Shown piece after piece: positions 34,040 to 53,113 of a stretch of DNA of 64,000 nt. Origin of the DNA: a virus; UHGV virus genome UHGV-1351408, one strand, 5' to 3'. Every line of letters starts with the position of its first letter. Position 1 is the first letter of the stretch. The position numbers were made by a program, and so were the translations under genes. The notes under the pieces were generated by a model, which saw only the letters and a list, made by a program, of their open reading frames with translations, searched no databases and was not told the DNA's origin.

Positions 34040-35143
34040 TTAGTCTTTGGCGTCAGCACGAACATCTACCAGCAACTGAGGACGAGTACAGTATGGCAGC
34101 ATGTAAGAGTGAGCTTCAAAGTCAATACCTTCGTCACGGTCTTTTTCGTATTCGAATACGTACAGTTCCTGACCAAGTGTATTTGCGTAACCCATCTTAG
34201 GACATGGACCATAAGCCACTTCGAAGATGTTGTTTGCTTCACCCAGCATAGAAACGTTAGGGAAGGCATGACCAACACCAACAGTTGCTGCTGCACCATC
34301 AATGCTCACCAGAGTGTGAACCTTACCGCGCTTGTCTTTGAACTTACCGTTGTACTGGACAAACTTAACACCACCGTAGTAGAAGGTGTTCATATGAGCC
34401 TGAACGCCGTCAGTACCACCAGTTCTCAGAGAACCAGTAATCTGTTGCCAAGCCAGCGGAGTCTGCTGTGCAAGATAAGCGTCACGAATCTTAGGATGTT
34501 TAGTCAGCTTGCTGAAGAACACACGGTCAACAACTACGTGAATTTCTTCACCGTTGATTACAGTGCCAGTCTTAGCTTCATCTTCCATGTGCATACGCAG
34601 TTCTTCAATAGAAGCGTCGATATCCGCATTAGGGTTGTCAAGGTCGAAGTAAACAGTCTTCTTCTCAACATCGAACTGCTTGTACAGGTCAGCGTACAGA
34701 GTACCACGAGCATCGACAACTTTACCCTTCAGAGCTTGCATAAACAGGAACTCACGAGTAATATCGAACTTGGTACGAATCTTCATCAGCTTCTTAGCAC
34801 GTACTACAGCTTCAGTAGTAAGCTCGTTTGCAGTGCCTGGCTGACGTACACCCTGAATTTCATCAGGAGTGATGCTTTCAACTTCTTTGAAGTACATCAT
34901 TGGGAAGCTGATTTGACGAACACGCTCAGGTGCGCTAGTCTCTGCTTTACGGCTATCACGGTCTACCGCATCAAGCAAGCTAACATCCCAATCAGTCAAG
35001 TCCATAAGGAAAGTAGTTTGGGTGATTGGTGCTGAACGGAACAGACCTAAGTTGGAAATATACCCATAAGTATTTGGGATAGACTGGACTTCACCAGTCA
35101 GGTCAGCAAGGAAAAATCTGCTTTTTTCAGAATTAGTCAACAT
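34040..35143 (-). CDS. major capsid protein (lambda gpE-like arrangement)
   Basis: 367 aa; follows decoration protein and protease-scaffold. Confidence 0.65.
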   Translation of the reverse strand: MLTNSEKSRFFLADLTGEVQSIPNTYGYISNLGLFRSAPITQTTFLMDLTDWDVSLLDAVDRDSRKAETSAPERVRQISFPMMYFKEVESITPDEIQGVRQPGTANELTTEAVVRAKKLMKIRTKFDITREFLFMQALKGKVVDARGTLYADLYKQFDVEKKTVYFDLDNPNADIDASIEELRMHMEDEAKTGTVINGEEIHVVVDRVFFSKLTKHPKIRDAYLAQQTPLAWQQITGSLRTGGTDGVQAHMNTFYYGGVKFVQYNGKFKDKRGKVHTLVSIDGAAATVGVGHAFPNVSMLGEANNIFEVAYGPCPKMGYANTLGQELYVFEYEKDRDEGIDFEAHSYMLPYCTRPQLLVDVRADAKD

Positions 35144-41284: not shown

Positions 41285-41360
41285 TGGAGAATCCGAAGGG
41301 ACTCGAACCCTTATAAACCTGTTTTGCAGACAGGCACATAGCCATTTCTGTCACGGATTC
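41285..41360 (-). tRNA. tRNA-Cys(GCA)
   Basis: Acceptor GAATCCG/CGGATTC, T-loop TTCGAGT, anticodon loop CTGCAAA, U73, CCA encoded. Confidence 0.7.
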
Positions 41361-41364
41361 AAAT

Positions 41365-41457
41365 TGGAGGAAGATACCAGACTTGAACTGGTACACCGAT
41401 TTCTCAGTTACTGGCAGTTTAGCAAACTGCTCCCTTACCTTTTAGGGTTAATCTTCC
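41365..41457 (-). tRNA. tRNA-Ser(GCT), long variable arm
   Basis: 93 nt; anticodon stem GCAGT/ACTGC, loop TTGCTAA. Confidence 0.6.
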
Positions 41458-41458
41458 A

Positions 41459-42193
41459 TTATTTCTGTAATGCGTTCTTCATTTCTGGTGTTGCAATAGT
41501 GTCAATCACACCAGTTTTACAAGCATCGTCAAACCAGTCTGGTAAGATACCTGCTAAGAACCCATTGATATTCGTTTTAAGGTACTCTGCAATAAGGGCA
41601 GCTTCTTCTTCAATCATCTGCACAACTTCATCTGCATAAGCTGTAATCTTCGAAATACCTTCATTAATCTTACTAACAGCTTGGTTAGCTAAATCAGAAA
41701 TAGTATCAAGACCTTTGTCAATAGCATCTTGTAAGTCACTTAATACATCATTAACACCGTCTAGTGCACTGTTAATCATATCAATAGCTTTTTGACCATA
41801 CTCTGTAGCAACACCCATAATACCACTAAATGGTGTACAACCGACTTGTTCACCTGCTGCACCCATAACATTAGAATAACCTTTTGCTACCTGCATACGT
41901 GATGAAAACTCATCAATGGACTTTTGACCGTAATCCGTCAGCGTTTTGGTAGTTGATGTAGTACTTGTCAGACTCGTTGTAAAGCTGTTAAGCAGAACTG
42001 TTGTAAGTCCAGCAGCAACAAGTTTATCCTTTATTGTAGGGTCTGTTACAGAGCTAATAGAGCTTACAAGTGATGTAGAGGCAGCTACGGTTCCACCGAG
42101 AACTGCTGCACCAGTAATAAGGGGATTAGAAAACCCTCTACCGGTTTTTAAGAGATTAAAAATCTCCTTACCTTGTTCTGTCATCTCTTTCAT
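41459..42193 (-). CDS. hypothetical Ser/Thr-rich protein inside the tRNA array
   Basis: ORF 41459-42256; start moved to MKEMTEQ (AAAGGTG RBS) to avoid tRNA-Phe. Confidence 0.45.
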   Translation of the reverse strand: MKEMTEQGKEIFNLLKTGRGFSNPLITGAAVLGGTVAASTSLVSSISSVTDPTIKDKLVAAGLTTVLLNSFTTSLTSTTSTTKTLTDYGQKSIDEFSSRMQVAKGYSNVMGAAGEQVGCTPFSGIMGVATEYGQKAIDMINSALDGVNDVLSDLQDAIDKGLDTISDLANQAVSKINEGISKITAYADEVVQMIEEEAALIAEYLKTNINGFLAGILPDWFDDACKTGVIDTIATPEMKNALQK

Positions 42194-42209
42194 TAAGCAC
42201 CTTTGAAAT

Positions 42210-42286
42210 TGGTAGTCCAGTGGGATTTGAACCCTCTTCTCATGTTTTTCAGACACGCGCTTTAACCATATAAGCTACTTGGACTA
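42210..42286 (-). tRNA. tRNA-Phe(GAA)
   Basis: Acceptor TAGTCCA/TGGACTA, anticodon loop CTGAAAA. Confidence 0.6.
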
Positions 42287-42291
42287 TAAAT

Positions 42292-42367
42292 TGGGGTGAC
42301 CTACGGGATTTGAACCCGTATAGACCATGTTCACAGCATGGGTCATTACCATTTATGATAAGGCCAC
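42292..42367 (-). tRNA. tRNA-His(GTG)
   Basis: Anticodon loop CTGTGAA; extra 5' G and C73. Confidence 0.7.
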
Positions 42368-42398
42368 ATTTAAGGACTCTCGTAAGAACCCTTAGAAG

Positions 42399-42474
42399 TG
42401 GCAGCGGCATAAGGATTTGAACCTTAATAAGACAGCTTCAGAGACTGCTGCATTGCCAGTTATGCTATACCGCT
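42399..42474 (-). tRNA. tRNA-Gln(CTG)
   Basis: Loop CTCTGAA, G73. Confidence 0.5.
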
Positions 42475-42479
42475 AAATT

Positions 42480-42558
42480 TGGTACTCCATATCGGATTCG
42501 AACCGATACATAACACAGATTTTAAGTCTGGCCTCTCTGCCAATTGGAGTAATGGAGC
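42480..42558 (-). tRNA. tRNA with Leu anticodon TAA, short variable arm
   Basis: 79 nt; loop CTTAAAA; Leu-type D-loop AATTGGCAGAG; A73. Confidence 0.5.
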
Positions 42559-42560
42559 AT

Positions 42561-42636
42561 TGGCGGGGGATGTTGGAATTGAACCAACTTCTTCGATTTC
42601 AAAGACCGAGGTTTTAACCTTGTAAACTAATCCCCT
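42561..42636 (-). tRNA. tRNA-Gln(TTG)
   Basis: Anticodon stem TCGGT/ATCGA, loop CTTTGAA, G73. Confidence 0.55.
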
Positions 42637-42644
42637 TTAAATCT

Positions 42645-43202
42645 TTACTTTCTTAGTGGATGAATAAAGAATGCCAACATAACTCTTTCCCTTGAGAATG
42701 CTCTTTCTTCTGGGACAACACTTTTTAGCTTCCACCCAATATAAATTCTCCAGTAAAACTGTTTACCAAAGACTTTAATTGATGGGATAAAAGCGAATAA
42801 TCCCCAAGCATTGCTGTTCCACATTAGGAGATAACCTGTCTGATTATCTTCAGGGTTAGAACTTACGTTGATATTACCTTTCCACTTAGTAACATCTTTT
42901 ACATCTCTTCCTAACACATGGTAAGAGAAGTTATAAGCTTTGTTTCTCCAGAGCCAACCAACTCTCTGCATATAGACACCAAGCTTACCAATCTTTCTAA
43001 TCTTAGCCCATCGTTCGATATGACCTTCATCACCATCAATTGGGTTGTCATAAGTTTCCATCCATCTGAACCCGAAAGGTAAGTGTCCTTTCTTCTCACT
43101 GTAGAATGGAACTACAAAAGGTGCTAAGATAACTGCTAAGATTGCTGCAAATGGCTCTAATAAAGCTAAGAAAATCCATGAAGCATACTTCAAATATCTC
43201 AT
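42645..43202 (-). CDS. membrane protein inside the tRNA array
   Basis: 185 aa; N-terminal hydrophobic segment WIFLALLEPFAAILAVILAPFVVPF. Confidence 0.45.
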   Translation of the reverse strand: MRYLKYASWIFLALLEPFAAILAVILAPFVVPFYSEKKGHLPFGFRWMETYDNPIDGDEGHIERWAKIRKIGKLGVYMQRVGWLWRNKAYNFSYHVLGRDVKDVTKWKGNINVSSNPEDNQTGYLLMWNSNAWGLFAFIPSIKVFGKQFYWRIYIGWKLKSVVPEERAFSRERVMLAFFIHPLRK

Positions 43203-43441
43203 TGTCTAATCCTAGTAAGGAGGTAAACATTATTATCTGTTTCTGAGTTTTCTGGTAAAGCTGTCTCAAAATTGACGCTTTTAAATTGTCTCCCACCAAA
43301 GTAATGACCAATAAATTTTTGTACTTTTATTGGGTCACATTCCCAGCCGACTTTCAAGAAAATGTGGGTATCTATAGTGGGAACCCTTACAAACTCAATA
43401 CTATTGGAATTTTCATGTTCAACGACGATTAATGTTTGCAT
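43199..43441 (-). CDS. hypothetical protein
   Basis: 80 aa. Confidence 0.4.
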   Translation of the reverse strand: MQTLIVVEHENSNSIEFVRVPTIDTHIFLKVGWECDPIKVQKFIGHYFGGRQFKSVNFETALPENSETDNNVYLLTRIRQ

Positions 43442-43459
43442 AAATCTCTCTTATTTATC

Positions 43460-43535
43460 TGGCGCAGGATAAGGGACTTGAACCCCTATTAACAGCTTCG
43501 TAGACTGTTGCTCTATCCATTTGAACTAATCCTGC
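43460..43535 (-). tRNA. tRNA-Arg(ACG)
   Basis: Acceptor GCAGGAT/ATCCTGC, loop CTACGAA. Confidence 0.7.
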
Positions 43536-43650
43536 TTACCTACGAGAACACCATACAGTTTTTCACAAACTTTGCTTTTACGTCTGTTTAGATATGACGC
43601 TCTAAACTTTTTTTGCAATTGACTTATTACTCATAGTGTTCTCCTAAAAT

Positions 43651-43728
43651 TGGTGTTCCAAGACGGATTCGAACCGTCACTAGTACAAGGTTTGAGCTTG
43701 CATCCTCTGCCAATTGGGATACTGGAAC
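43651..43728 (-). tRNA. tRNA with Leu anticodon CAA, short variable arm
   Basis: 78 nt; loop CTCAAAC; D-loop AATTGGCAGAGG; A73. Confidence 0.5.
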
Positions 43729-43729
43729 A

Positions 43730-43804
43730 TGGTACTCACTAAAGGACTTGAACCTTTTTCTTCATCTTGTAAGGGTGATGTTTTACCATATAAACTAAGC
43801 GAGT
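43730..43804 (-). tRNA. tRNA-Val(TAC)
   Basis: Loop CTTACAA. Confidence 0.5.
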
Positions 43805-43900
43805 GTGAAAGAGGTCTGAAGTTGTGCCACTAACTCAACTCCGTGGAATTTGTTACGGTCTTCAGTTGACTCAAAGTGGTCTTTCACTTGACCTCTGAAT

Positions 43901-43976
43901 TGGTGCTCCCACAAGGATTCGAACCCTGATAAGTTGCTTACAAGGCAACCGTAATAGCCAATTATACGATAGGAGC
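43901..43976 (-). tRNA. tRNA-Thr(TGT)
   Basis: Anticodon stem GTTGC/GCAAC, loop CTTGTAA. Confidence 0.7.
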
Positions 43977-43983
43977 ATTAATT

Positions 43984-44058
43984 TGGAGCATCCAGAGGGA
44001 ATCGAACCCTCAACCTCAGTTTGGAAGACTGTAATTTTCCCGTTTAAACTATGGATGC
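43984..44058 (-). tRNA. tRNA-Gly(TCC)
   Basis: Acceptor GCATCCA/TGGATGC, loop CTTCCAA. Confidence 0.65.
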
Positions 44059-44064
44059 ACTAAT

Positions 44065-44140
44065 TGGTGGAGTCACTGAGAATTGAACTCAGTTCCCAAG
44101 TTTGCAAAACTCGAATTTTAACCATATAAACTATGACCCC
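44065..44140 (-). tRNA. tRNA-Ala(TGC)
   Basis: Loop TTTGCAA. Confidence 0.6.
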
Positions 44141-44145
44141 AATTT

Positions 44146-44221
44146 TGGTACAGGTGGAGGGAATTGAACCCATCGTCTTACTGATTAAGAGTCAGCCGCA
44201 TAACCATTTTGCTACACCTGC
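44146..44221 (-). tRNA. tRNA-Lys(CTT)
   Basis: Loop CTCTTAA. Confidence 0.55.
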
Positions 44222-44228
44222 ATTAATT

Positions 44229-44305
44229 TGGTACACCTAGAGAGATTCGAACTCACACTGAGCAGATTCTAAGTCTGCTGCCTCTACCAATTGGGCTATA
44301 GGTGC
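44229..44305 (-). tRNA. tRNA with Leu anticodon TAG, short variable arm
   Basis: 77 nt; anticodon stem GCAGA/TCTGC, loop CTTAGAA; D-loop AATTGGTAGAGG; A73. Confidence 0.55.
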
Positions 44306-44560
44306 ATTAAATCTTTTTAGAGAACTTCTAAGAACCTAAGCAACAAGGTTCCACAACAAGCTGTAATAACCTTAGAAGCCCTCTAAAAAGACCTAATTTG
44401 GTCTTTGCATAGTCTTGTTTAATCCGGTGACTAGAACCTTTGGAGAGCTTGATATTATCTCTTCTCCGTGACACCTACTAGGTGCTTTATCAGTGTGTAC
44501 GACAATACACGAGGGATAAACCGAAAATGCGAGCAAGCATGGACGGTGTAAATCTTATTA

Positions 44561-44650
44561 GGCGGTAAGTAAAGGAGTCGAACCCTCACCGTATCTCTAC
44601 AGTGGCAACAGTTTTCAAGACTGTTTGGCTGCCATTAGCCGCTACCTACC
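44561..44650 (-). tRNA. tRNA-Ser(TGA), long variable arm
   Basis: 90 nt; anticodon stem ACAGT/ACTGT, loop CTTGAAA; 3' CC encoded, terminal A not. Confidence 0.6.
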
Positions 44651-44663
44651 CCTAATAAGACTT

Positions 44664-44746
44664 TGGCATGGGACGGAGGAGTTGAACCCCTTTGAAACGG
44701 TTTTGGAGGCCGTTGCTCATGCCTTAGAGTCTTAACATCGTCCCAC
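44664..44746 (-). tRNA. tRNA-like element, anticodon unassigned (CCA/Trp possible)
   Basis: 83 nt with good acceptor (GTGGGAC/GTCCCAT) and T-arm, but D/anticodon region does not fold canonically. Confidence 0.3.
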
Positions 44747-44888
44747 ATTATAATTCGAAGCTTACCGTATTATCTCAACACTGTAAAGCCCCTTCTCAGA
44801 TTATTTACATGTTCTGGAAAACATGAGATACAGACCACCTCCCTACAGGAAGACCCGCTTAGGTCGTCTAAGTAATCTGCTAACTAAT

Positions 44889-44965
44889 TGGCACACCCTA
44901 CAGGATTCGAACCTGTAACTAACGATTTAGAAGACCGTTGCTCTATCCAATTGAACTAAGGGTGC
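44889..44965 (-). tRNA. tRNA-Arg(TCT)
   Basis: Anticodon stem ACGGT/ATCGT, loop CTTCTAA. Confidence 0.7.
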
Positions 44966-45302
44966 ATTAATCTTTAAAGACTCTCTTAGAAAGCCCTTAA
45001 AGATGCCCACCTTATTAATCATACCGTGGGCTAGTACGCCAAATTCTTTGATGAGGGATTGGAATACCTCACTGGTGTTTAGCCTATCAAGCTACTGCCA
45101 GAAAAACATTGTCGTTTGCATTTATTTTAAATTTGCAAAATAGACGCTACGCAACGAAAACTATTCAGAATATGTACAACAAATTTCCCCACATTGTGTT
45201 ACGTCTAACGCTCATGTATTGGTGTTTGAATTATACATATTATGAATTATTTTTAGTTACTATAAAGTAGTCACATCTTAATGTCAACAACTTTATTGAA
45301 AT

Positions 45303-45378
45303 TGGTACTGGTAGGTGGAATCGAACCACCGATGTTCCCTTATCAGGGGAGTGTTATAACCTTCTTAACTATACCAGC
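45303..45378 (-). tRNA. tRNA-Ile(GAT)
   Basis: Loop CTGATAA. Confidence 0.6.
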
Positions 45379-45379
45379 T

Positions 45380-45456
45380 TGGAGGTTCAGATGGGAATCG
45401 AACCCACATTCATAGGGCTTATGAAACCCCTGCATTACCTTATCTGCGACTGAACC
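45380..45456 (-). tRNA. tRNA-Met(CAT)
   Basis: Loop TTCATAA; GGG/CCC run in anticodon stem. Confidence 0.55.
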
Positions 45457-45534
45457 ATAATAAGTACCCTAGTTAGAGAAACTGTTGAGTGGGTGTTTCC
45501 AGCCGCGCAGGTGTTTCTCAGTTAAGGGTGAATT

Positions 45535-45610
45535 TGGTAGAAGTGGAGGGATTCGAACCCATCGCCTGTCAGATTAAAAGTCTGCCGCATCACCATTCTG
45601 CTACACTTCC
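45535..45610 (-). tRNA. tRNA-Lys(TTT)
   Basis: Loop CTTTTAA. Confidence 0.6.
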
Positions 45611-45814
45611 ATTAAATTATCTTTGTAGATAAGCTACCCAGACTTGCTTAAGGTCTGTAGCGATGTGCCTTTTTGGGTTTAAATCTAGAATTTACCCTTT
45701 CACCCTTTGTGGTCGCATACTCACAGGTAAGCTTAATAACTTATCTACAAAGATAATTACCAGACCGTTGTTTATCATCTTAAGTGCTACCATTACACCA
45801 ACTCGACATCTGCC

Positions 45815-45838
45815 GAGTGAAGGAATCGAACCTTCGCC
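45815..45838 (-). other. isolated tRNA T-arm-like module (GAAGG-TTCGATT-CCTTC) without an acceptor stem
   Basis: Canonical T-arm, but no 5' partner for the would-be acceptor within 100 nt; lies inside a conserved-box spacer element. Confidence 0.35.
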
Positions 45839-46068
45839 TTTTCTTTACCGGAGAAATAGATTGTTTAAGTTTTGCTGTAAACGGTCTTCTGTAAATTTGT
45901 TGAGCCAGACCAAGTTTTAAATTTTTTCAAAATTAAATTGGCTTGAAAATATCATACGTACTTGCTGAATTTGGTCTTCTGCTCCTTTAAAGAATACTCG
46001 TAAGAACTCTTTAAGGGAGGGGCTAAATAGCCCTCTCAAAACATCATTTTGAAATACTTATTATAATT

Positions 46069-46145
46069 TGGCGGCTACGATGAGACTTGAACTCACATCA
46101 TCTCCCGTGACAGGGGAGTATTTTCTCCAGTTAAACTACATAGCC
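46069..46145 (-). tRNA. tRNA-Asp(GTC)
   Basis: Anticodon stem CTCCC/GGGAG, loop CTGTCAC. Confidence 0.7.
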
Positions 46146-46150
46146 TCTAT

Positions 46151-46238
46151 TGGTGTGCCGTGTAGGAGTCGAACCTACCGAGTCTCAATGACAAGGGATT
46201 TACAGTCCCCACCGCTACCATCTACGGGATAACGACAC
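46151..46238 (-). tRNA. tRNA-Tyr(GTA), long variable arm
   Basis: 88 nt; loop CTGTAAA. Confidence 0.7.
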
Positions 46239-46247
46239 ATTTTAATT

Positions 46248-46324
46248 TGGCGGTTAGTCAGGGATTCGAACCCTGTGCCATTCGCTTAACAGGCGACCGC
46301 ACATACCTTATGTGCTTCCTAACC
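46248..46324 (-). tRNA. tRNA-Asn(GTT)
   Basis: Loop CTGTTAA. Confidence 0.6.
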
Positions 46325-46400
46325 TTAATACATTACCAGACCGTGTTTTTCTTTTATCCGCAAAAAGTAGTTTGTTGCTGAATACGGTCTTCTGTAAAAT

Positions 46401-46477
46401 TGGAGGCGGGTGCAGGAGTCGAACCTGCCGATACCATGCTAATGAGACATGTGAGACGCCCTTTCTCTATACCCGCA
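46401..46477 (-). tRNA. tRNA with CAT anticodon (Met or Ile2)
   Basis: Loop CTCATTA; 1-72 mismatch. Confidence 0.45.
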
Positions 46478-46568
46478 ATTCTTAATGACCAGACCAAATC
46501 TCTTCTTTGTCCGATTTACCTTCAGATGAATAAGATTAAGTTTGCTGTAATTGGTCTTCTGTCAAAAC

Positions 46569-46646
46569 TGGCGTTCCAGAAGGGATTTGAACCCTCAGAT
46601 ATCCACTTTGAAAGAGTGGTGACTTTACCATTTTGTCTACTGGAAC
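46569..46646 (-). tRNA. tRNA-Glu(TTC)
   Basis: Anticodon stem CCACT/AGTGG, loop CTTTCAA. Confidence 0.7.
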
Positions 46647-46653
46647 ATTAATT

Positions 46654-46730
46654 TGGTCTCTGTTGGAGGACTTGAACCTCCGGCCTTACCGCCCCAAACG
46701 GAACGCTCTACCAAGCTGAGCTAAACAGAG
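46654..46730 (-). tRNA. tRNA-Pro(TGG)
   Basis: D-arm AGCTCAGCTTGGTAGAGC, loop TTTGGGG. Confidence 0.7.
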
Positions 46731-46896: not shown

Positions 46897-48312
46897 TTAC
46901 CAGATGTAACGGTCAAGCATTACTGCTTTGAGCATTACGCTGATTGGGTCAAACTTCTCACCACCAAGCAGAGCTTTTAAAGTGGCTGGAGAGAACCCTG
47001 ATACCATTGCTACACCATTATCCTTAACAGATACTTCGCAAGTACCATTACGGTTTGCTAAGTACCAGAATACTAGTTGTGGCATTTCGTATCCAGCTTT
47101 TTTGTACTTACTCTGAATTGCTTCAAAGTTTGTACGACCATTTGCACCATCAACCTGATTAAACTCCATATCAGAGAAGATAATAAGCTTACTTGGCATA
47201 TCTTTCTGAGTCAAGTTGTTTCTCTTACCTGTTTCAAGAATGCGGTCAAAAGCTGCTTGTAAGTTAGTTGAGCCATATTCAACGTGTCGCATCACCTGAC
47301 GATGACGGTTTCGTAAATCACCACTCAGTTCGATGAAGTGAGGGTTTGTTGAATAAACCATTAACTCATTCTTAAAGCAACCTGTATTGCGTTCTGCTAC
47401 ATACAAGGCAAGTGATACACCAATATCCAGAGCAGTAATGGAGCCAAAATTCACCCAAGACATTGAACTTGATACATCAGACATACACAAGATGTTTTCA
47501 CCTTCTGCCATCCAGTTTGGTAGTGCTTTCCACTGCTCATTAGCAACATCTGCATTACCATACTTGACAGATTTAATCACATCGTATGGGTAAACAGCAC
47601 CAGCGTTAATCTTAGTCTCACCTTTTGATAAGGACTCGATGTAAGCTTTGTAACGCTCTCCATCTTTACGGTTAAACAGTTTTTGGTAACGTGCAGCAGC
47701 AAGTGAAGGAATCTTACTGTAGTCAATCTTACCAAACTCATTAGCAGAGATTTTTTGCTCAACTGTATCAGATAGTGCAGACAACAGTGTGCGGTACTCT
47801 TTCTCACTCAAGTTGGCAAACTTGCAGAAACGTTTTACAAACTGCTTATGACGTGGTTTGACTCGTGGCAACCACTTAGCCGCCAAACCTGCTGTTGCAG
47901 GGTCTAGTAATGCTGCTTCTAAATGTTTGAAGGCATCTGTCTCGAAACGAGTACCTACGAAGATTTTGAAGTCATCAAAACGACCAAGTTCTGCAATCTT
48001 ATCCATAATGCGAAGAACCTGCGTAGACTCTAAAACTTTGTCTTCAATTGCTTGAAGCAAAACAGTTCTGAAGGCTTTACGCTCACCCATACCTTCTCGT
48101 ACATCTCGCATATGAAGCAAAATACGAACTGCAACATCAACATCCTCACGCAAAGCTTTGTAGAACAGGTCTGGTAAGATTTCTACGTTGCTACGGCTTG
48201 AACCAGCAGCTTTGTAAAAGTCTACAAGAGCAGACATTGATGAAGTATGGTTTACAGCACCATTTTCAGTTCGACCTGCATGAAGGTGCGCATGTTTAAA
48301 TAATTCGCTCAT
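46897..48312 (-). CDS. vWA-domain protein with MIDAS motif (possibly Ro60/TROVE-like)
   Basis: 471 aa; helical N-terminal part; C-terminal vWA features: DxSxS (CMSDVSSSMS), later STN and FSDME. Confidence 0.6.
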   Translation of the reverse strand: MSELFKHAHLHAGRTENGAVNHTSSMSALVDFYKAAGSSRSNVEILPDLFYKALREDVDVAVRILLHMRDVREGMGERKAFRTVLLQAIEDKVLESTQVLRIMDKIAELGRFDDFKIFVGTRFETDAFKHLEAALLDPATAGLAAKWLPRVKPRHKQFVKRFCKFANLSEKEYRTLLSALSDTVEQKISANEFGKIDYSKIPSLAAARYQKLFNRKDGERYKAYIESLSKGETKINAGAVYPYDVIKSVKYGNADVANEQWKALPNWMAEGENILCMSDVSSSMSWVNFGSITALDIGVSLALYVAERNTGCFKNELMVYSTNPHFIELSGDLRNRHRQVMRHVEYGSTNLQAAFDRILETGKRNNLTQKDMPSKLIIFSDMEFNQVDGANGRTNFEAIQSKYKKAGYEMPQLVFWYLANRNGTCEVSVKDNGVAMVSGFSPATLKALLGGEKFDPISVMLKAVMLDRYIW

Positions 48313-48916: not shown

Positions 48917-49014
48917 AACTTTTTTAACTTGTAATAGTTCTTGACTTGTTGTATGGATTACTGTACCATCTTACTTAAAGCTGTAGGTCTGCCTTGTTCT
49001 ACAAAGGAGACTTA

Positions 49015-49176
49015 ATGAGAAAATCAAATAAACCGAAGAAAGGTAAGAATACCAATCACTGTAAGGAATCAAAAAGGGTAGAGTTACTCTACTATTCATC
49101 CTCTGAAATTGGTCTGTACCTGTTCTTTCAAAATTACAGAAGACAAGAGGATTATCTATGTGTAGTTCCCAATTAG
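49015..49176 (+). CDS. small hypothetical protein
   Basis: ORF 48994-49176; start at MRKSNK after AAAGGAGA RBS. Confidence 0.35.
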   Translation: MRKSNKPKKGKNTNHCKESKRVELLYYSSSEIGLYLFFQNYRRQEDYLCVVPN

Positions 49177-49391
49177 AAATCGCAGATATTATAGATTTAT
49201 ATCAAACTGCAAAGAGTCATGGTTATATAACCTCAATTGGAAAGAATAGTCACTATGATGCTTTGACTGGAATGTATTTCAGGGCAATGGCTCAATCTAG
49301 TGAACAACACTTAATGGTTTCTTCCAGTGAGTTTACTTCGTTTCTCTATTGCAGCAAAATCATAAATCGCAGGAGAACTGAAAAATGTTAA
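49158..49391 (+). CDS. hypothetical protein
   Basis: 77 aa. Confidence 0.4.
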   Translation: MCSSQLEIADIIDLYQTAKSHGYITSIGKNSHYDALTGMYFRAMAQSSEQHLMVSSSEFTSFLYCSKIINRRRTEKC

Positions 49392-49975
49392 CAGTAACTT
49401 TTAATTACAATAGTGACGGCTCTGTATCAATTAATTCACCGTATGCTAATGACCTCTTGAAAGAGTTAGTTAACCAGTGTGACAGAGGTCTTTTCTATGT
49501 TCAAAACTCTTTTAAACAAAAGACCATTGCTAATAATTTGATGCGCGTAACAGTGACTGCATCTAATCCAAACTATGACTTTGATAGTGAAAGTCCATAT
49601 TCATTAGTTGCTCTTGGAGAGTCTAGTCAATTTAAACTTGTATGCCATGACTCAGAAACATTTCTTAAGGTATTTTCCAACCTTATTCACAATAATAAGT
49701 ATAGTTACGTTGATGGGAGTGTGAACTTCTATCCAGCAAACTATACCTGTTTATTGGTTGATAATATGAGAAAGAGTAAGCAAGAGCCTACAGAAATTTC
49801 ATTTGATGTGAACTCTAGTCCAGATGCAGAAACAAGTAACAGCTTTGATATGGATTATGCGCTATCGCTTAGTAAAAAATCCGAGTTCATTGATTATGTC
49901 AATGGATTTGGTTTTAAGTTTGATGAGAGTATGAATCTCAAAAAACTTAAGAACCTACTTAAGACTAAAGCTTAA
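49385..49975 (+). CDS. hypothetical protein
   Basis: 196 aa; GGAGAA RBS. Confidence 0.55.
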   Translation: MLTVTFNYNSDGSVSINSPYANDLLKELVNQCDRGLFYVQNSFKQKTIANNLMRVTVTASNPNYDFDSESPYSLVALGESSQFKLVCHDSETFLKVFSNLIHNNKYSYVDGSVNFYPANYTCLLVDNMRKSKQEPTEISFDVNSSPDAETSNSFDMDYALSLSKKSEFIDYVNGFGFKFDESMNLKKLKNLLKTKA

Positions 49976-50022
49976 GTGTAGATAGGGGTTATTACCCCTT
50001 TTACTATTTATAAGGATATTTA

Positions 50023-50394
50023 ATGAAGGCTAAGAGTGCAAAAGACTTTTACTGCTTCCTACAATCCTACATCAATTCTGTGAAAAATGGTGAGCGATAT
50101 AATCTTAATGATGTTATCCCAACACCTTTGACATGGAGACTAAGTAAATGGCCTGAAGAAGATATCACATCGACGAGTGAACAACCTGCCTACAACCCTG
50201 AAATGCACATCCCAGATTCTGAAAACCTATTATATCCAATGTTTCATATTGTTGGTCTTGGTAGATTTCTTATGGATATTCAATATGTGATTGGTAAGGG
50301 TTATGAGATTAAAGGTATTGTTGTTGGTGATGTATCTTCACATCATAAAGGTTATTTTAGATTAAACGCACATTTAGAGGCTAAAAAGAAATGA
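50023..50394 (+). CDS. hypothetical protein, paralog of the N-terminal domain of the next gene
   Basis: 123 aa; shares FMDLQYAI and NAKLKDA motifs with the N-terminus of 50391-51524. Confidence 0.55.
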   Translation: MKAKSAKDFYCFLQSYINSVKNGERYNLNDVIPTPLTWRLSKWPEEDITSTSEQPAYNPEMHIPDSENLLYPMFHIVGLGRFLMDIQYVIGKGYEIKGIVVGDVSSHHKGYFRLNAHLEAKKK

Positions 50395-51524
50395 TTAAAG
50401 CAAAAACTTACCCAGACTTCAAAGAGTTTGTGAAGGGCTTCATTGCAAACGTAAAGGCTGGTAAGAGATATGATTTTAGAACATATCAAGAAGCTATTTT
50501 ACCGCTTACCTATAGTTCATATTGGCCTGAAGCTGATATCGCAGAAGTTGAGAAGTTTGACTACAAGCCAGACTACAAAGTTCCTTTTAGTGATGAATTG
50601 CTTTACAGTGTTGGTGCACAGATGAGAACTGCTGATTTCTTCATGGATTTGCAGTATGCAATCATCAATGGTAAAGATGTTGACACAATTTACTGTGAAT
50701 GGTTGGCAAGAGTTAAGCCGTTCTCAATGTTGAATGCTAAGTTGAAGGATGCTATCAAGCCACCATCAATTACTCAGCAACCAACCAATCAAACAGTAAA
50801 TGAAGGTGGTACACTTACCCTAAGTATTATTGCAACTAATGCCACTGGATATCAATGGAAGAAGGATGGTGAGGACATCTCCAGTGCCACTTCTGCAACT
50901 TACACAAAACAATCTGTAGTACCTGCCGATGCTGGTTCATATACTTGTGTTGTATCTGGAGAGGCTGGGACAAGTGTTACTTCAGACGCAGCAACAGTTA
51001 CCGTTAACGCACTACCTGTTATTACCAAGCAACCTTCTAGCCAGACCATCAATGAGGGTGGAAACATTAGCTTGGAAGTGACTGCCACAGGTGCAACGGG
51101 CTATCAGTGGAAGAAAGATGGCTCTAATATTCCTTCAGCTACAAATGCTACTTATAGCAAGTCTGGTGCACTACCAGCAGATGCAGGTTCATATACTTGC
51201 GTTGTAACGGGTGCAGGTGGTTCCGTTACTTCTAGCCCTGCAACAGTAACTGTTAAAGCACTTCCGGTAATCACTCAACAGCCAACTAATCAAGAAATCA
51301 CTGAAGGTGAGGTATTGACACTCAACGTTGTGGCAACAGGTGCAACGGGTTATCAGTGGAAGAAGGGTGAGGAAAACATCCCAGACGCAACGACTGCAAC
51401 TTACACCAAAGAAGGTGCAACTGCTGCTGATGCAGGAAGCTACACTTGCGTAGTGACTGGTGCAGGTGGCTCTGTAACATCTAATGCGGCAACAGTTACA
51501 GTTAACCCAACAGGGGAGGCATAA
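50391..51524 (+). CDS. Ig-like domain protein with three tandem ~83-aa repeats
   Basis: 377 aa; repeats ITQQPTNQ..GYQWKKDGE..AGSYTCVV x3, also tandem at DNA level. Confidence 0.6.
   Translation: MIKAKTYPDFKEFVKGFIANVKAGKRYDFRTYQEAILPLTYSSYWPEADIAEVEKFDYKPDYKVPFSDELLYSVGAQMRTADFFMDLQYAIINGKDVDTIYCEWLARVKPFSMLNAKLKDAIKPPSITQQPTNQTVNEGGTLTLSIIATNATGYQWKKDGEDISSATSATYTKQSVVPADAGSYTCVVSGEAGTSVTSDAATVTVNALPVITKQPSSQTINEGGNISLEVTATGATGYQWKKDGSNIPSATNATYSKSGALPADAGSYTCVVTGAGGSVTSSPATVTVKALPVITQQPTNQEITEGEVLTLNVVATGATGYQWKKGEENIPDATTATYTKEGATAADAGSYTCVVTGAGGSVTSNAATVTVNPTGEA
50760..51506 (+). repeat. three tandem ~249-bp DNA repeats encoding the Ig-like domains
   Basis: Copies at about 50760-51010, 51011-51258, 51259-51506. 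Confidence 0.6.
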
Positions 51525-51988
51525 TGCAACTCTCAAGAAAAGGTTTAGATGCCATTAAGTTCTTTGAAGGTCTGAAGTTAGAGGCTTACAAAGACTCTGC
51601 CGGAATCCCAACAATCGGGTACGGTACAATCCGTATTGACGGAAAACCTGTTAAGATGGGTATGAAAATTACTGCTGAACAAGCTGAACAGTATCTTCTC
51701 GCAGATGTTGAAAAGTTTGTTGCAGCAGTGAACAAAGCTATCAAGGTTCCAACTTCTCAGAATGAGTTCGATGCACTTGTAAGTGAAACATACAACATCG
51801 GTATCACAGCTATGCAGGACTCTACATTTATCAAGCGCCACAATGCTGGTAATAAAGTAGGTTGTGCAGAAGCTATGCAGTGGTGGAACAAGATTACAGT
51901 CAAAGGTGAGAAGGTCACTTCAAACGGTCTGAAAAATAGACGAAGAATGGAAGCTGACATTTATCTTGACAGTGTATATCCAAAGTAA
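51524..51988 (+). CDS. endolysin, GH24 lysozyme family (T4 e-like)
   Basis: N-terminus FFEGLKLEAYKDSAGIPTIGYGT matches T4 lysozyme [21 protein letters not shown] including catalytic Glu/Asp/Thr positions. Confidence 0.8.
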   Translation: MQLSRKGLDAIKFFEGLKLEAYKDSAGIPTIGYGTIRIDGKPVKMGMKITAEQAEQYLLADVEKFVAAVNKAIKVPTSQNEFDALVSETYNIGITAMQDSTFIKRHNAGNKVGCAEAMQWWNKITVKGEKVTSNGLKNRRRMEADIYLDSVYPK

Positions 51989-51997
51989 TATCTTCAT

Positions 51998-52025
51998 AGG
52001 CTCCTTCGGGAGCCTTTTTTATTTT
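51998..52025 (+). terminator. rho-independent terminator after endolysin
   Basis: AGGCTCC-TTCG-GGAGCCT followed by TTTTTTATTTT. Confidence 0.65.
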
Positions 52026-52039
52026 CTAAGGAGAAAGCT

Positions 52040-52438
52040 ATGAAACTTTGGGCTAGTGACTTTGGGACTTTTAAGTACACCCGTAATGGCTCGCTTGTAC
52101 GCATTGTTGGAAATAATGTAGTTTCAAGAGGTGACAAGGTGTATACACGGTTTACTGTAGAGCTTGTTGAACTGTCACCTATTGAGTCTGTTAACAATGG
52201 TCTATTCAAGTTTGAGACTTACAATGTCAATGAGCATGGACAATTCAACCCTCTTGGCGAAAGTGGACTTGATATTATTTCAGAGCACCCATTGACAAAA
52301 GAGCAACTTGCAGGTTACTATAAAACTGTTCTGGAAAGGCAGTTAGCAACACATGAACAAGAAGCTAACTACCATCTACAGCATTGCGAAAATTTAAGAG
52401 CAAAAATTGAACAAGCAGAGAGAGGTTTTTATGAATAA
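52040..52438 (+). CDS. hypothetical protein
   Basis: 132 aa; AAGGAGA RBS. Confidence 0.5.
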   Translation: MKLWASDFGTFKYTRNGSLVRIVGNNVVSRGDKVYTRFTVELVELSPIESVNNGLFKFETYNVNEHGQFNPLGESGLDIISEHPLTKEQLAGYYKTVLERQLATHEQEANYHLQHCENLRAKIEQAERGFYE

Positions 52439-52820
52439 AGAGATTCAAGTAAAAGTTGACACGTTTGGGCATGATGGTCGTGAAGACGCTGGTCTTGCTG
52501 ATGCAGTAATTTTTGAGTGTAATGGTAATATCAGCCTTCGTTTTACAGGCTCAGGTAGCACACTACGTAGGATGCGAGATGATGCAGATGGATGCCCTGT
52601 ATTTGGTTGGTATGACATGGAGTTCCCACTTTATGCAATCCATTATCCAGATGGTGGGGAAGACTGGACAACTCAATCAATCCGTGATGAGCTTAACGGC
52701 ATTCCGGTTGAGCCAGAAGAGAAAGAGCCTGTTGAACTGACCTTTACATTCATCAAAGAGGAGAAGGTAGGTGATTTGTCAGTAACTGAAGCAATTCAAG
52801 TCTCACAGGTTATCCGTTAA
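52431..52820 (+). CDS. hypothetical protein
   Basis: ORF 52407-52820; start at MNKEIQ. Confidence 0.45.
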   Translation: MNKEIQVKVDTFGHDGREDAGLADAVIFECNGNISLRFTGSGSTLRRMRDDADGCPVFGWYDMEFPLYAIHYPDGGEDWTTQSIRDELNGIPVEPEEKEPVELTFTFIKEEKVGDLSVTEAIQVSQVIR

Positions 52821-53113
52821 TGAGCAAAGTACAGGTTATTTTCCCTATTTGTGACTTCTCACTAGAGCGTGAACTTGACCTGTACGAAGAAATTACTGAC
52901 GAAATCATCTGGTCTGTTGTAGAAGAGGCTATCAAGAAACTGTATGGTGGCCTCTTAAACCCATCAAGTAAAAAGCTCACTACTAAGCAAGTAGCTGATA
53001 CGTACACTTCATACGATGCCTACAACAAGCCTTTTGAAAATACCTGCTTTGACCTTATGGTAGGCAATAATAAAGTCAACTATTTCTTCGTCAGAGAGTT
53101 TAACGATGAGTAA
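52820..53113 (+). CDS. hypothetical protein
   Basis: 97 aa. Confidence 0.5.
   Translation: MSKVQVIFPICDFSLERELDLYEEITDEIIWSVVEEAIKKLYGGLLNPSSKKLTTKQVADTYTSYDAYNKPFENTCFDLMVGNNKVNYFFVREFNDE

What the first reader, a model, noticed from the sequence alone, without database searches (positions are those of the whole stretch)
50023..51524. Ig-like triple-repeat protein with a duplicated N-terminal domain, directly upstream of the endolysin
Gene 50391-51524 has an N-terminal domain paralogous to the preceding gene 50023-50394 and three tandem ~83-aa Ig-like repeats that are also near-identical at the DNA level (about 249 bp each). Ig-like domains in phages are usually on virion surfaces, yet this gene sits outside the structural operon beside the lysozyme, so its role is unclear.
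Basis: seen in the sequence. Interest (0 to 1): 0.5.

Follow-up and report, generated by a model that had tools for sequence, protein, structure and literature searches.

The report
Felix O1-type capsid decoration protein (Hex-Dec)
The three-repeat Ig-like gene beside the lysozyme is the already-described "Hoc-like" head decoration protein of Felix O1-type phages, so the finding is ordinary; only the small anchor-domain-only copy just upstream has no known role.

Summary
The window is a Felixounavirus (Felix O1-like myophage) genome. Gene 50391-51524 (377 aa) is the ortholog of Bas63 Hex-Dec (PDB 9NCF chain S, E=1e-299) and Sf14 gp20 (PDB 9C2D chain S). In those phages a monomer sits at the centre of the 60 pentamer-proximal hexamers of the T=9 capsid. 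An N-terminal ~120-aa capsid-binding domain (CapBD) anchors it and a string of Ig-like domains projects outward. Orthologs were found in virions by mass spectrometry (Felix O1 Gp36, Sf14 gp20). The position far from the structural module and the 1-4 variation in Ig number are published.

The repeats are not near-identical in DNA: 64-67% identity, with synonymous sites saturated.

New details here:
- The Ig units are orthologous A-B-C-D; this phage is A-B-D, and shorter alleles are in-register hybrids.
- The 123-aa upstream gene is a CapBD-only paralog, not mentioned in either structural paper.
- It is under purifying selection (dN/dS 0.125) and lacks both capsid-contact arginines.
- It is absent from the published Felix O1 virion protein list, pseudogenised in one lineage and fused with Hex-Dec in one isolate.

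Its function is unknown.

The parts
49984..49999 (+). Terminator-like GC hairpin plus T run that closes the upstream unit, immediately before the three-gene unit
   Evidence: The same position is annotated as a rho-independent terminator in phage AYO145A.
50023..50394 (+). 123-aa CapBD-only paralog of Hex-Dec (phrog_4463, unknown function; Felix O1 ORF37, Bas63 bas63_0125). Same fold family as the capsid-binding domain, with no Ig domains.
   Evidence: - BLASTP against Hex-Dec: 37% identity, E=4e-17.
- phmmer against PDB chains 9ncf_S and 9c2d_S: E~2e-11.
- AF2 model (pLDDT 65): the only significant Foldseek hits are 9c2d_S and 9ncf_S, TM 0.65.
- dN/dS 0.125.
- G79 and Q/H107 replace the capsid-contact arginines.
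50149..50169 (+). 21-nt stretch (codons for W-P-E-E-D-I) shared at 86% with 50523-50543 in Hex-Dec. It is the crossover point of the natural paralog/Hex-Dec chimera in phage SP3_SHan-2021.
   Evidence: Repeat family D4, spacing 374 nt; chimera alignment.
50391..50759 (+). Hex-Dec capsid-binding domain (CapBD, aa 1-123), with Arg79 and Arg107
   Evidence: Near-identical to the modelled part of Bas63 Hex-Dec, PDB 9ncf_S; whole-protein E=1e-299. Arg79 and Arg107 are the MCP-contact residues reported for Sf14 gp20 (PMC11821841).
50760..51011 (+). Ig-like unit A (aa 124-207)
   Evidence: Pfam Ig_3/I-set; 90% nt identity to unit A of the 4-Ig allele in L007.
51012..51260 (+). Ig-like unit B (aa 208-290)
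   Evidence: Pfam Ig_2/I-set; 90% nt identity to unit B of L007.
51261..51524 (+). Ig-like unit D (aa 291-373), a 4-residue tail and the stop codon. Unit C of the 4-Ig alleles is absent.
   Evidence: 90% nt identity to unit D and 69% to unit C of L007. Aligns with residues 379-458 of Bas63 Hex-Dec.
51524..51988 (+). Endolysin (T4-type phage lysozyme), overlapping the Hex-Dec stop codon by 1 nt, which suggests translational coupling
   Evidence: PF00959 E=9e-41; phrog_7.
51998..52015 (+). Terminator-like hairpin (7 bp, 5 GC) plus T run that ends the three-gene unit
   Evidence: annotated as a terminator in AYO145A.
34040..35143 (-). Major capsid protein, the binding partner of Hex-Dec; Asp221 is conserved
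   Evidence: phmmer against 9ncf_A (E=2e-247) and 9c2d_A; residue 221 is D.

Best explanation
Genes 50023-51988 form a terminator-bounded unit on the + strand. It encodes three proteins: a CapBD-only paralog, the capsid decoration protein Hex-Dec, and the endolysin. I infer late expression from the endolysin and a virion protein sharing the unit.

Hex-Dec (377 aa) is the Hoc-like decoration protein of Ounavirinae. By homology to solved virions, one monomer plugs the centre of each of the 60 pentamer-proximal hexamers of the T=9 head. It binds through its N-terminal ~120-aa CapBD; in Sf14 the contacts are salt bridges from Arg79 and Arg107 to Asp221 of the major capsid protein. Three acidic I-set Ig-like domains (units A-B-D) extend outward as a flexible fibre. 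By inference from T4 Hoc and from Bas63 knockout data, the fibre gives weak, condition-dependent adhesion to surfaces or hosts and is not needed for capsid integrity.

The number of Ig units changes by in-register recombination between units.

The 123-aa upstream protein is an old duplicate of the CapBD alone. It is maintained by selection but has lost the capsid-contact arginines. It is most likely an accessory, dispensable factor that is absent from virions or present only at low copy. It probably still binds a capsid-related partner in the infected cell (capsomer/procapsid or Hex-Dec itself). That last step is inference only.
For: Shown here:
- Orthology to Bas63 Hex-Dec and Sf14 gp20, PDB 9ncf_S E=1e-299 and 9c2d_S E=4e-171.
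- Arg79 and Arg107 are present in the window protein (alignment). MCP Asp221 is present, and the MCP is about 99% identical to 9ncf_A.
- Three Ig_3/I-set domains. The Ig part has pI 4.5.
- Terminator-like hairpins flank the unit and the start/stop codons overlap.
- The order paralog - Hex-Dec - endolysin holds in every locus that carries the paralog among the 33 related loci examined. Hex-Dec lengths are 210/294/377/461 aa.
- Units are orthologous A-B-C-D. 1-Ig alleles are A/D or A/B/D hybrids with different breakpoints.

From papers:
- Capsid position, monomer binding and the Arg79/Arg107-Asp221 contacts (PMC11821841).
- Bas63 Hex-Dec, a gene more than 10 kb outside the structural module, and 1-4 Ig domains in the genus (PMC12609058).
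- Felix O1 Gp36, the gene next to lysin gp35, is in the virion proteome (PMC3185647).
- Bas63 g124 is more essential on E. coli S17-1 than on the other three strains tested (PMC11482910). bas63_0124 is the Hex-Dec gene.

Paralog:
- Homology and fold.
- dN/dS 0.125, against 0.043 for the CapBD.
- G79 is invariant and Q/H stands at 107.
- Absent from the Felix O1 virion list.
- Pseudogene in REP11, CECAV_041 and L020; chimera in SP3.
Against: - Nothing was measured on this particular phage. Capsid location is by homology, though at 97% identity in the CapBD and 99% in the MCP.
- The biological role of the Ig fibre is not established for any Ounavirinae phage. Both structural papers only propose Hoc-like functions.
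- For the paralog, the absence from virions rests on one stringent shotgun proteome and on the lack of reported extra density. A 14-kDa protein at low copy could have been missed.
- No direct evidence exists for any binding partner of the paralog.
Confidence: 0.92

Rival explanations
1. The 377-aa protein is a tail protein, as most GenBank records and PHROG 3995 call it ('tail protein', 'major tail protein').
For: The phrog_3995 label is 'tail protein'. Ig-region matches reach major-tail-protein PHROGs 158, 853 and 3575. Most related records carry that annotation.
Against: - Matches to tail PHROGs other than 3995 cover almost only the Ig repeats (from residue ~96-127 onward), not the N-terminal domain.
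- The N-terminal domain matches only the capsid-bound chains 9ncf_S and 9c2d_S.
- PMC12609058 states explicitly that Hex-Dec was mis-annotated as a tail component in most Felixounavirus genomes.
Confidence: 0.02
2. The Ig protein works in lysis together with the adjacent endolysin, for example as a cell-wall or envelope-binding helper, and is not a virion part.
For: It overlaps the endolysin start codon by 1 nt, which suggests translational coupling. It sits in the same terminator-bounded unit. The adjacency is conserved as far as Erwinia phages.
Against: - Orthologs are in purified virions by mass spectrometry and cryo-EM.
- It has no signal peptide or transmembrane segment, and no cell-wall-binding domain hits.
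- Co-transcription with a late lysis gene is enough to explain the adjacency.
Confidence: 0.02
3. The 123-aa paralog is itself a second, Ig-less hexamer-centre decoration protein. It could occupy the 20 true-threefold hexamers that Hex-Dec does not bind, or compete with Hex-Dec and so set the density of Ig fibres.
For: - Same fold family as the CapBD.
- Encoded directly upstream with an ATGA start/stop overlap, consistent with co-expression.
- Under purifying selection across three genera.
- Its altered, strongly conserved segment 69-95 covers the position of Arg79, one of the two reported capsid contacts.
- The Sf14 paper notes that Asp221 geometry differs in true-threefold hexamers, so a differently shaped anchor could fit there.
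Against: - Both cryo-EM studies report no density on the other hexamers.
- It is not in the Felix O1 virion proteome, nor among the extra virion proteins of VpaE1.
- Both contact arginines are lost.
- It is pseudogenised in a viable lineage.
Confidence: 0.15
4. The paralog has been recruited to a function unrelated to the capsid, such as a host-interaction or anti-defence role, and only keeps the fold.
For: - It evolves about 4 times faster at non-synonymous sites than the CapBD (median dN 0.083 against 0.021).
- 43% of positions in its C-terminal half are fixed but different from Hex-Dec.
- It is dispensable in nature.
Against: - No similarity to any family other than the CapBD family: Pfam none, PADLOC not scanned, PDB only CapBD chains.
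- Strict linkage to Hex-Dec in every genome that has it.
- A natural chimera between the two genes exists in an isolate deposited as a complete genome.
Confidence: 0.2

Closest known systems
Bas63 (JohannRWettstein) Hex-Dec, bas63_0124, PDB 9NCF chain S (PMC12609058)
   Same: Direct ortholog. The CapBD is about 97% identical and has the same I-set Ig units. The gene order is the same (paralog bas63_0125 - Hex-Dec - endolysin bas63_0123). The MCP partner is 99% identical.
   Different: Bas63 has four Ig units. This phage has three and lacks the third one: its unit 3 aligns with Bas63 unit 4.
Shigella phage Sf14 gp20 (Mooglevirus), PDB 9C2D/9C3A chain S (PMC11821841)
   Same: Same architecture (CapBD plus three Ig), E=4e-171. 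Arg79 and Arg107 are conserved. It binds as a monomer at the centre of pentamer-proximal hexamers and was detected by mass spectrometry.
   Different: A different genus, with more divergent Ig units.
[quoted passage not shown]
   Same: Works alike: a dispensable monomer at hexamer centres, with a string of Ig-like domains projecting from the head. PHROG 'Hoc-like head decoration' families match the Ig region.
   Different: The domain order is reversed: the Hoc capsid-binding domain is C-terminal. The CapBD is topologically distinct, larger and pseudo-twofold symmetric, with minimal sequence similarity (PMC12609058). It is not a member of the Hoc family in the strict sense.
T5 pb10
   Same: N-terminal capsid-binding domain followed by an Ig-like domain. 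The pb10 Ig domain matches the third Ig unit (PDB 5lxk_A E=1e-11, 8zvi_a).
   Different: pb10 has one Ig domain, and its capsid-binding domain shows no detectable homology: the match is confined to residues 298-374.
Erwinia phage phiEa21-4 gene 38 / phiEa104 homolog (Kolesnikvirus)
   Same: Distant CapBD homolog (31% identity, E=6e-15). It lies directly upstream of the endolysin in syntenic context and keeps R79 and a basic residue at 107. It is annotated 'conserved structural protein'.
   Different: It carries one Big_2 domain instead of I-set domains, and there is no CapBD-only paralog upstream.

Membership tests
Ounavirinae Hex-Dec / Sf14 gp20 hexamer-centre decoration protein | N-terminal ~120-aa capsid-binding domain homologous to the modelled chains 9ncf_S and 9c2d_S | tested here: met
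   phmmer E=1e-299 and 4e-171, aligned from residue 1.
Ounavirinae Hex-Dec / Sf14 gp20 hexamer-centre decoration protein | C-terminal tandem Ig-like domains (1-4 in the genus) | tested here: met
   Three Ig_3/I-set stretches. Relatives have 1, 2, 3 or 4 units.
Ounavirinae Hex-Dec / Sf14 gp20 hexamer-centre decoration protein | Capsid-contact residues Arg79 and Arg107, and partner MCP Asp221 | tested here: met
   R79 and R107 are present. MCP D221 is present. The residues are defined in PMC11821841.
Ounavirinae Hex-Dec / Sf14 gp20 hexamer-centre decoration protein | Gene outside the structural module, next to the endolysin | tested here: met
Ounavirinae Hex-Dec / Sf14 gp20 hexamer-centre decoration protein | Physical presence on the capsid of this phage | not testable with these tools
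   Known only for orthologs: cryo-EM of Bas63 and Sf14; mass spectrometry of Felix O1 Gp36 and Sf14 gp20.
T4 Hoc family | N-terminal Ig-like domains followed by a C-terminal capsid-binding domain homologous to that of Hoc | tested here: not met
   Here the capsid-binding domain is N-terminal. Hoc-like PHROG matches cover only residues ~121-290. No Hoc chain appears among the PDB hits to the N-terminal domain. PMC12609058 reports a distinct topology.
Phage major tail / tail tube proteins with Ig-like extension (the database annotation) | A tail-tube or other tail-protein domain outside the Ig region | tested here: not met
   Tail PHROGs other than 3995 match almost only the Ig repeats. The N-terminal domain matches capsid-bound chains only.
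Hex-Dec CapBD fold (asked of the 123-aa paralog) | Full-length homology to the CapBD | tested here: met
   BLASTP E=4e-17; phmmer E~2e-11 against 9ncf_S and 9c2d_S over residues 2-118; Foldseek TM 0.65, the only significant hits. Caveats: the model has pLDDT 65, and its input alignment included the window CapBD.
Hex-Dec CapBD fold (asked of the 123-aa paralog) | Capsid-contact arginines 79 and 107 | tested here: not met
   Gly at 79 in all paralogs; Gln or His at 107.
Hex-Dec CapBD fold (asked of the 123-aa paralog) | Presence in virions | not testable with these tools
   The literature is negative so far. Felix O1 ORF37 is absent from the virion list. It is not among the VpaE1-only virion proteins, but the full VpaE1 table is held only as an image.

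The most novel reading that the evidence does not exclude
The conserved 123-aa CapBD-only paralog, which neither structural paper mentions, would be a second capsomer-centre ligand. It could occupy the 20 true-threefold hexamers left free by Hex-Dec. Alternatively it could act before or against Hex-Dec binding and so control how many Ig fibres a head carries. Either way, Felix O1-type phages would have a two-component, tunable head-decoration system.
Probability: 0.15. Interest if true: 0.45.

Novelty: already known. Interest (0 to 1): 0.22.

Why it matters
For the main finding the value is correct annotation. The gene is a head decoration protein, not a 'tail protein', and its odd position and variable repeat number are already documented. 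Hoc-like fibres are of practical interest for phage display and for phage adherence to mucus and surfaces. In therapeutic Felix O1-type phages the Ig copy number is a natural variable worth recording.

Two small additions from this work could be followed up cheaply. First, the Ig units are orthologous modules that are lost through independent in-register crossovers. Second, a selected CapBD-only paralog of unknown role sits in the same unit in most of the 253 matching phage records, and natural loss and fusion variants are available as ready-made mutants.

Tried and rejected
- Tandem Repeats Finder on 49000-53000 found no array, because the units are too divergent in DNA.
- The search for homologous proteins with the CapBD returned almost only 210-aa (1-Ig) clusters and no remote relatives, so it was useless for the copy-number distribution.
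- The search for related loci with the divergent 122-aa CapBD-only protein P0097 found nothing in IMG/VR, so its context is unknown.
- Supplementary tables that could show paralog peptides or knockout fitness were not available. No text is held for the PhageMaP and Bas63 papers. VpaE1 Table S2 is an image. The Sf14 supplements do not list the paralog.
- A guessed accession for Bas63 was wrong. The right record, MZ501086, was found by tblastn with a Bas63-specific repeat.
- A sigma-70 promoter scan gave fewer hits than shuffles and no promoter in front of the unit, so it is uninformative for late phage promoters.
- A frameshift or fusion reading of the two ORFs was considered and rejected. They are in different frames with a standard ATGA overlap. 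Both are separate ORFs of conserved length in all loci that carry the paralog.
- A recent duplication was considered and rejected for the repeats: synonymous sites are saturated.
Full report
**What the window is.** The 3-kb region around the finding matches 253 phage records, almost all labelled Escherichia, Salmonella, Shigella or Citrobacter phages of the genus Felixounavirus and its relatives. The best match is phage TH10 at 92.7% nucleotide identity. The structural module lies on the minus strand. It runs from the tail fibre gene (17949-20333) through the tape measure, sheath, major capsid protein (34040-35143), protease and portal genes to the large terminase gene (39239-40855). A cluster of 26 tRNA genes follows at 41285-46730. 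The finding lies on the opposite strand, about 9.5 kb beyond the terminase gene.

**Check of the observation.** Both ORFs exist at the stated coordinates.
- The 123-aa product of 50023-50394 aligns with the first 100 residues of the 377-aa product of 50391-51524 at 37% identity, E=4e-17.
- The larger protein has three tandem units of 84, 83 and 83 residues (aa 124-207, 208-290, 291-373). They are 67-71% identical in protein and are recognised three times by Pfam Ig_3/Ig_2/I-set.
- The next gene, 51524-51988, is a T4-type lysozyme (PF00959, E=9e-41).
- One statement is wrong: the repeats are not near-identical in DNA. Codon-aligned identity is 64-67%. The proportion of synonymous differences is 0.66-0.72, close to saturation, and dN/dS is 0.11-0.17. 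Tandem Repeats Finder finds no array.

The units are therefore old and are kept similar by selection on the protein.

**What the Ig protein is.** A sequence search of the Protein Data Bank gives two overwhelming matches over the full length. One is chain S of 9NCF, the capsid of phage Bas63 (JohannRWettstein), with E=1e-299. The other is chain S of 9C2D/9C3A, the capsid of Shigella phage Sf14, with E=4e-171.

The papers describe these chains as a Hoc-like decoration protein: 'Hex-Dec' in Bas63 (PMC12609058) and gp20 in Sf14 (PMC11821841).
[quoted passage not shown] Its Ig-like domains are flexible and not resolved.
- The Sf14 paper names the contacts: Arg79 and Arg107 of gp20 to Asp221 of three of the six capsid subunits.
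- The window protein has both arginines. The window capsid protein is about 99% identical to that of Bas63 and has Asp221.
- The Bas63 paper already states three points: the gene lies more than 10 kb outside the structural module, it is mis-annotated as 'tail protein' in most genomes, and the number of Ig-like domains ranges from one to four in the genus.
- Virion mass spectrometry detected Sf14 gp20 and Felix O1 Gp36. Gp36 is the gene next to lysin gp35 and the ortholog of the window gene.
- A genome-wide knockout screen of Bas63 found g124 more essential on E. coli S17-1 than on the other three strains tested (PMC11482910). bas63_0124 is the Hex-Dec gene, with bas63_0125 the small paralog and bas63_0123 the endolysin.

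**Local organisation.** A terminator-like hairpin precedes the small gene (49984-49999) and another follows the endolysin (51998-52015). Both positions are annotated as terminators in phage AYO145A. The three genes overlap start to stop: ATGA at 50391-50394 and one base at 51524. This looks like one transcription unit with translational coupling. I infer late expression from the endolysin and a virion protein sharing the unit. That is enough to explain why a head protein sits beside a lysis gene. The order is the same in every related locus that carries the paralog. The adjacency of Hex-Dec and endolysin extends to the Erwinia phages phiEa104 and phiEa21-4. There the CapBD (31% identity, E=6e-15) carries a single Big_2 domain instead of I-set domains.

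**Repeat number.** Among 33 related loci the protein is 210, 294, 377 or 461 aa long, corresponding to 1, 2, 3 or 4 units.
- Compared with a four-unit allele (units A-B-C-D), each unit of the window gene has one clear ortholog at 90% nucleotide identity and about 65% to the others. The window is A-B-D, and two-unit alleles are A-D.
- A sliding comparison shows that the single unit of one-unit alleles is a hybrid. It starts as A and ends as D, with the switch at different points in different phages; in one lineage it runs A, then B, then D.
- Copy number therefore falls through independent, in-register crossovers between units.

This refines the published observation of variable numbers and is not a new phenomenon.

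**The small upstream gene.** It covers the whole CapBD and nothing else.
- It matches the two solved CapBD chains at E~2e-11.
- An AlphaFold2 model of modest quality (pLDDT 65) has only those two chains as significant Foldseek hits, TM 0.65. The input alignment included the window CapBD, so this adds little beyond the sequence homology.
- A tblastn search finds two CapBD-encoding places in most of the 253 records. At least 16 records have only one.
- The family has 51 clusters at 90% identity, nearly all of 122-124 residues, and no Pfam domain.
- Across 25 genomes its median dN/dS is 0.125, so it is under purifying selection. Its non-synonymous divergence is about four times that of the Hex-Dec CapBD (median dN 0.083 against 0.021; CapBD dN/dS 0.043).
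- Conservation within the paralog family is strongest in residues 69-95 and 103-120. The first segment covers the position that Arg79 occupies in Hex-Dec. The paralogs have an invariant Gly at 79 and Gln or His at 107. In the C-terminal half, 43% of positions are fixed in both families but differ between them, against 25% in the N-terminal half.
- The distant Erwinia-phage Hex-Dec keeps Arg79 and a Lys at 107.

Neither structural paper mentions the gene. 'Paralog' does not occur in either main text, and neither 'gp19' nor 'gp21' (the numbers either side of gp20) occurs in the Sf14 main text. Felix O1 ORF37, the paralog, is not in the virion list. The VpaE1 paper names only gp54, gp58 and gp68 as virion proteins not seen in Felix O1; its paralog is ORF40. 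Both cryo-EM studies report no density on the remaining hexamers.

**Natural variants of the small gene.**
- In phages REP11 and vB_CECAV_041 and in one IMG/VR contig, the gene is a pseudogene. All three share the same internal deletion of about 230 nt and lack a start codon. The 3' end that carries the Hex-Dec ribosome-binding site is retained.
- In Salmonella phage SP3_SHan-2021 the two genes are fused. The first 47 or so residues come from the paralog and the rest from Hex-Dec. The junction is at the shared W-P-E-E-D-I stretch, window 50149-50169 and 50523-50543. The chimera keeps the Hex-Dec segment with both arginines.

The paralog is therefore dispensable for propagation, and its N-terminal part is at least compatible with the Hex-Dec fold.

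**Size of the family.** A profile of both groups searched against 1.84 billion representative proteins finds only 13 clusters. The distant members carry other display modules behind the CapBD: Big_2, I-set, Big-like, or a charged low-complexity tail. One is a divergent CapBD-only protein. The Erwinia phages have no paralog. The duplication therefore probably post-dates the split from that lineage and pre-dates the divergence of Felixounavirus, Mooglevirus and Suspvirus, whose members all have it.

**Mechanism, with status of each step.**
- Shown by homology to solved structures: the CapBD plugs the hexamer centre through Arg79/Arg107-Asp221 contacts, at 60 sites per head.
- Shown by sequence: three acidic Ig-like domains follow (pI 4.5).
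- Inferred from T4 Hoc and the Bas63 knockout data: the fibre gives weak, condition-dependent adhesion and is not required for capsid stability.
- Inferred for the paralog: it is a selected but dispensable accessory protein that no longer binds in the way Hex-Dec does. It is most likely not a stoichiometric virion component, and its partner is unknown. A second-decoration role on the true-threefold hexamers is not excluded but is disfavoured by the published maps and proteomes.

**Verdict.** The main finding is an already described protein family and a previously reported allele: the same 377-aa architecture as AYO145A gp41, which the Sf14 paper discusses. Interest is low. The only open point is the function of the CapBD-only paralog. 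It is a modest lead, and natural mutants are available to test it.

Noticed in passing
L002 2501-3379 (Salmonella phage SP3_SHan-2021, MW296865): A single 292-aa gene replaces the paralog plus Hex-Dec. Its first ~47 residues are paralog-type and the rest is Hex-Dec with two Ig units. The crossover lies at the shared WPEEDI stretch (window 50149-50169 / 50523-50543).
   Followed up: partly
L003 2306-2497 (REP11), L004 2313-2497 (vB_CECAV_041), L020 ~3320-3500: The paralog is a pseudogene with one shared internal deletion of ~230 nt and no start codon. Its 3' end with the Hex-Dec ribosome-binding site is kept. This is a natural knockout lineage.
   Followed up: partly
L019, L020, L023, L004 (1-Ig alleles); L003, L002 (2-Ig alleles): Short Hex-Dec alleles contain hybrid Ig units (A/D, A/B/D, B/C/D) with different breakpoints. 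Copy number was therefore reduced several times independently by in-register crossovers, although the units are only ~65% identical in DNA.
   Followed up: yes
L037 4001-4615 (Erwinia phage phiEa104; same in phiEa21-4 gene 38): A distant CapBD homolog carries a Big_2 domain instead of I-set domains. It lies directly upstream of the endolysin and has no CapBD-only paralog. The anchor domain has exchanged its display module.
   Followed up: partly
window 41285-46730, minus strand: A dense cluster of 26 tRNA genes lies between the terminase gene and the Hex-Dec unit. It includes two tRNA-Met, two tRNA-Gln, two tRNA-Lys, two tRNA-Arg, two tRNA-Ser and three tRNA-Leu genes.
   Followed up: no
window 46897-48312, minus strand: A 471-aa protein with DUF2828 and DUF7788 (phrog_850, 'RNA-binding protein') sits immediately beside the tRNA cluster. 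Its function was not examined.
   Followed up: no
window 41459-42256, minus strand: A 265-aa ORF (phrog_2114, with a weak match to a GTP-binding-domain PHROG) is embedded within the tRNA cluster and overlaps the predicted tRNA-Phe at 42210-42285. The ORF start (GTG) may be miscalled.
   Followed up: no
(collection records): A record named 'Staphylococcus phage SA1' appears among the Felixounavirus matches, and its 123-aa protein is 99% identical to the VpaE1 paralog. The host label is probably wrong.
   Followed up: no
P0097 (122 aa, from the representative search): A divergent CapBD-only protein (E=1e-33 to the profile) of unknown origin. No locus for it was found in IMG/VR, so whether it also sits next to a Hex-Dec gene is unknown.
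   Followed up: partly
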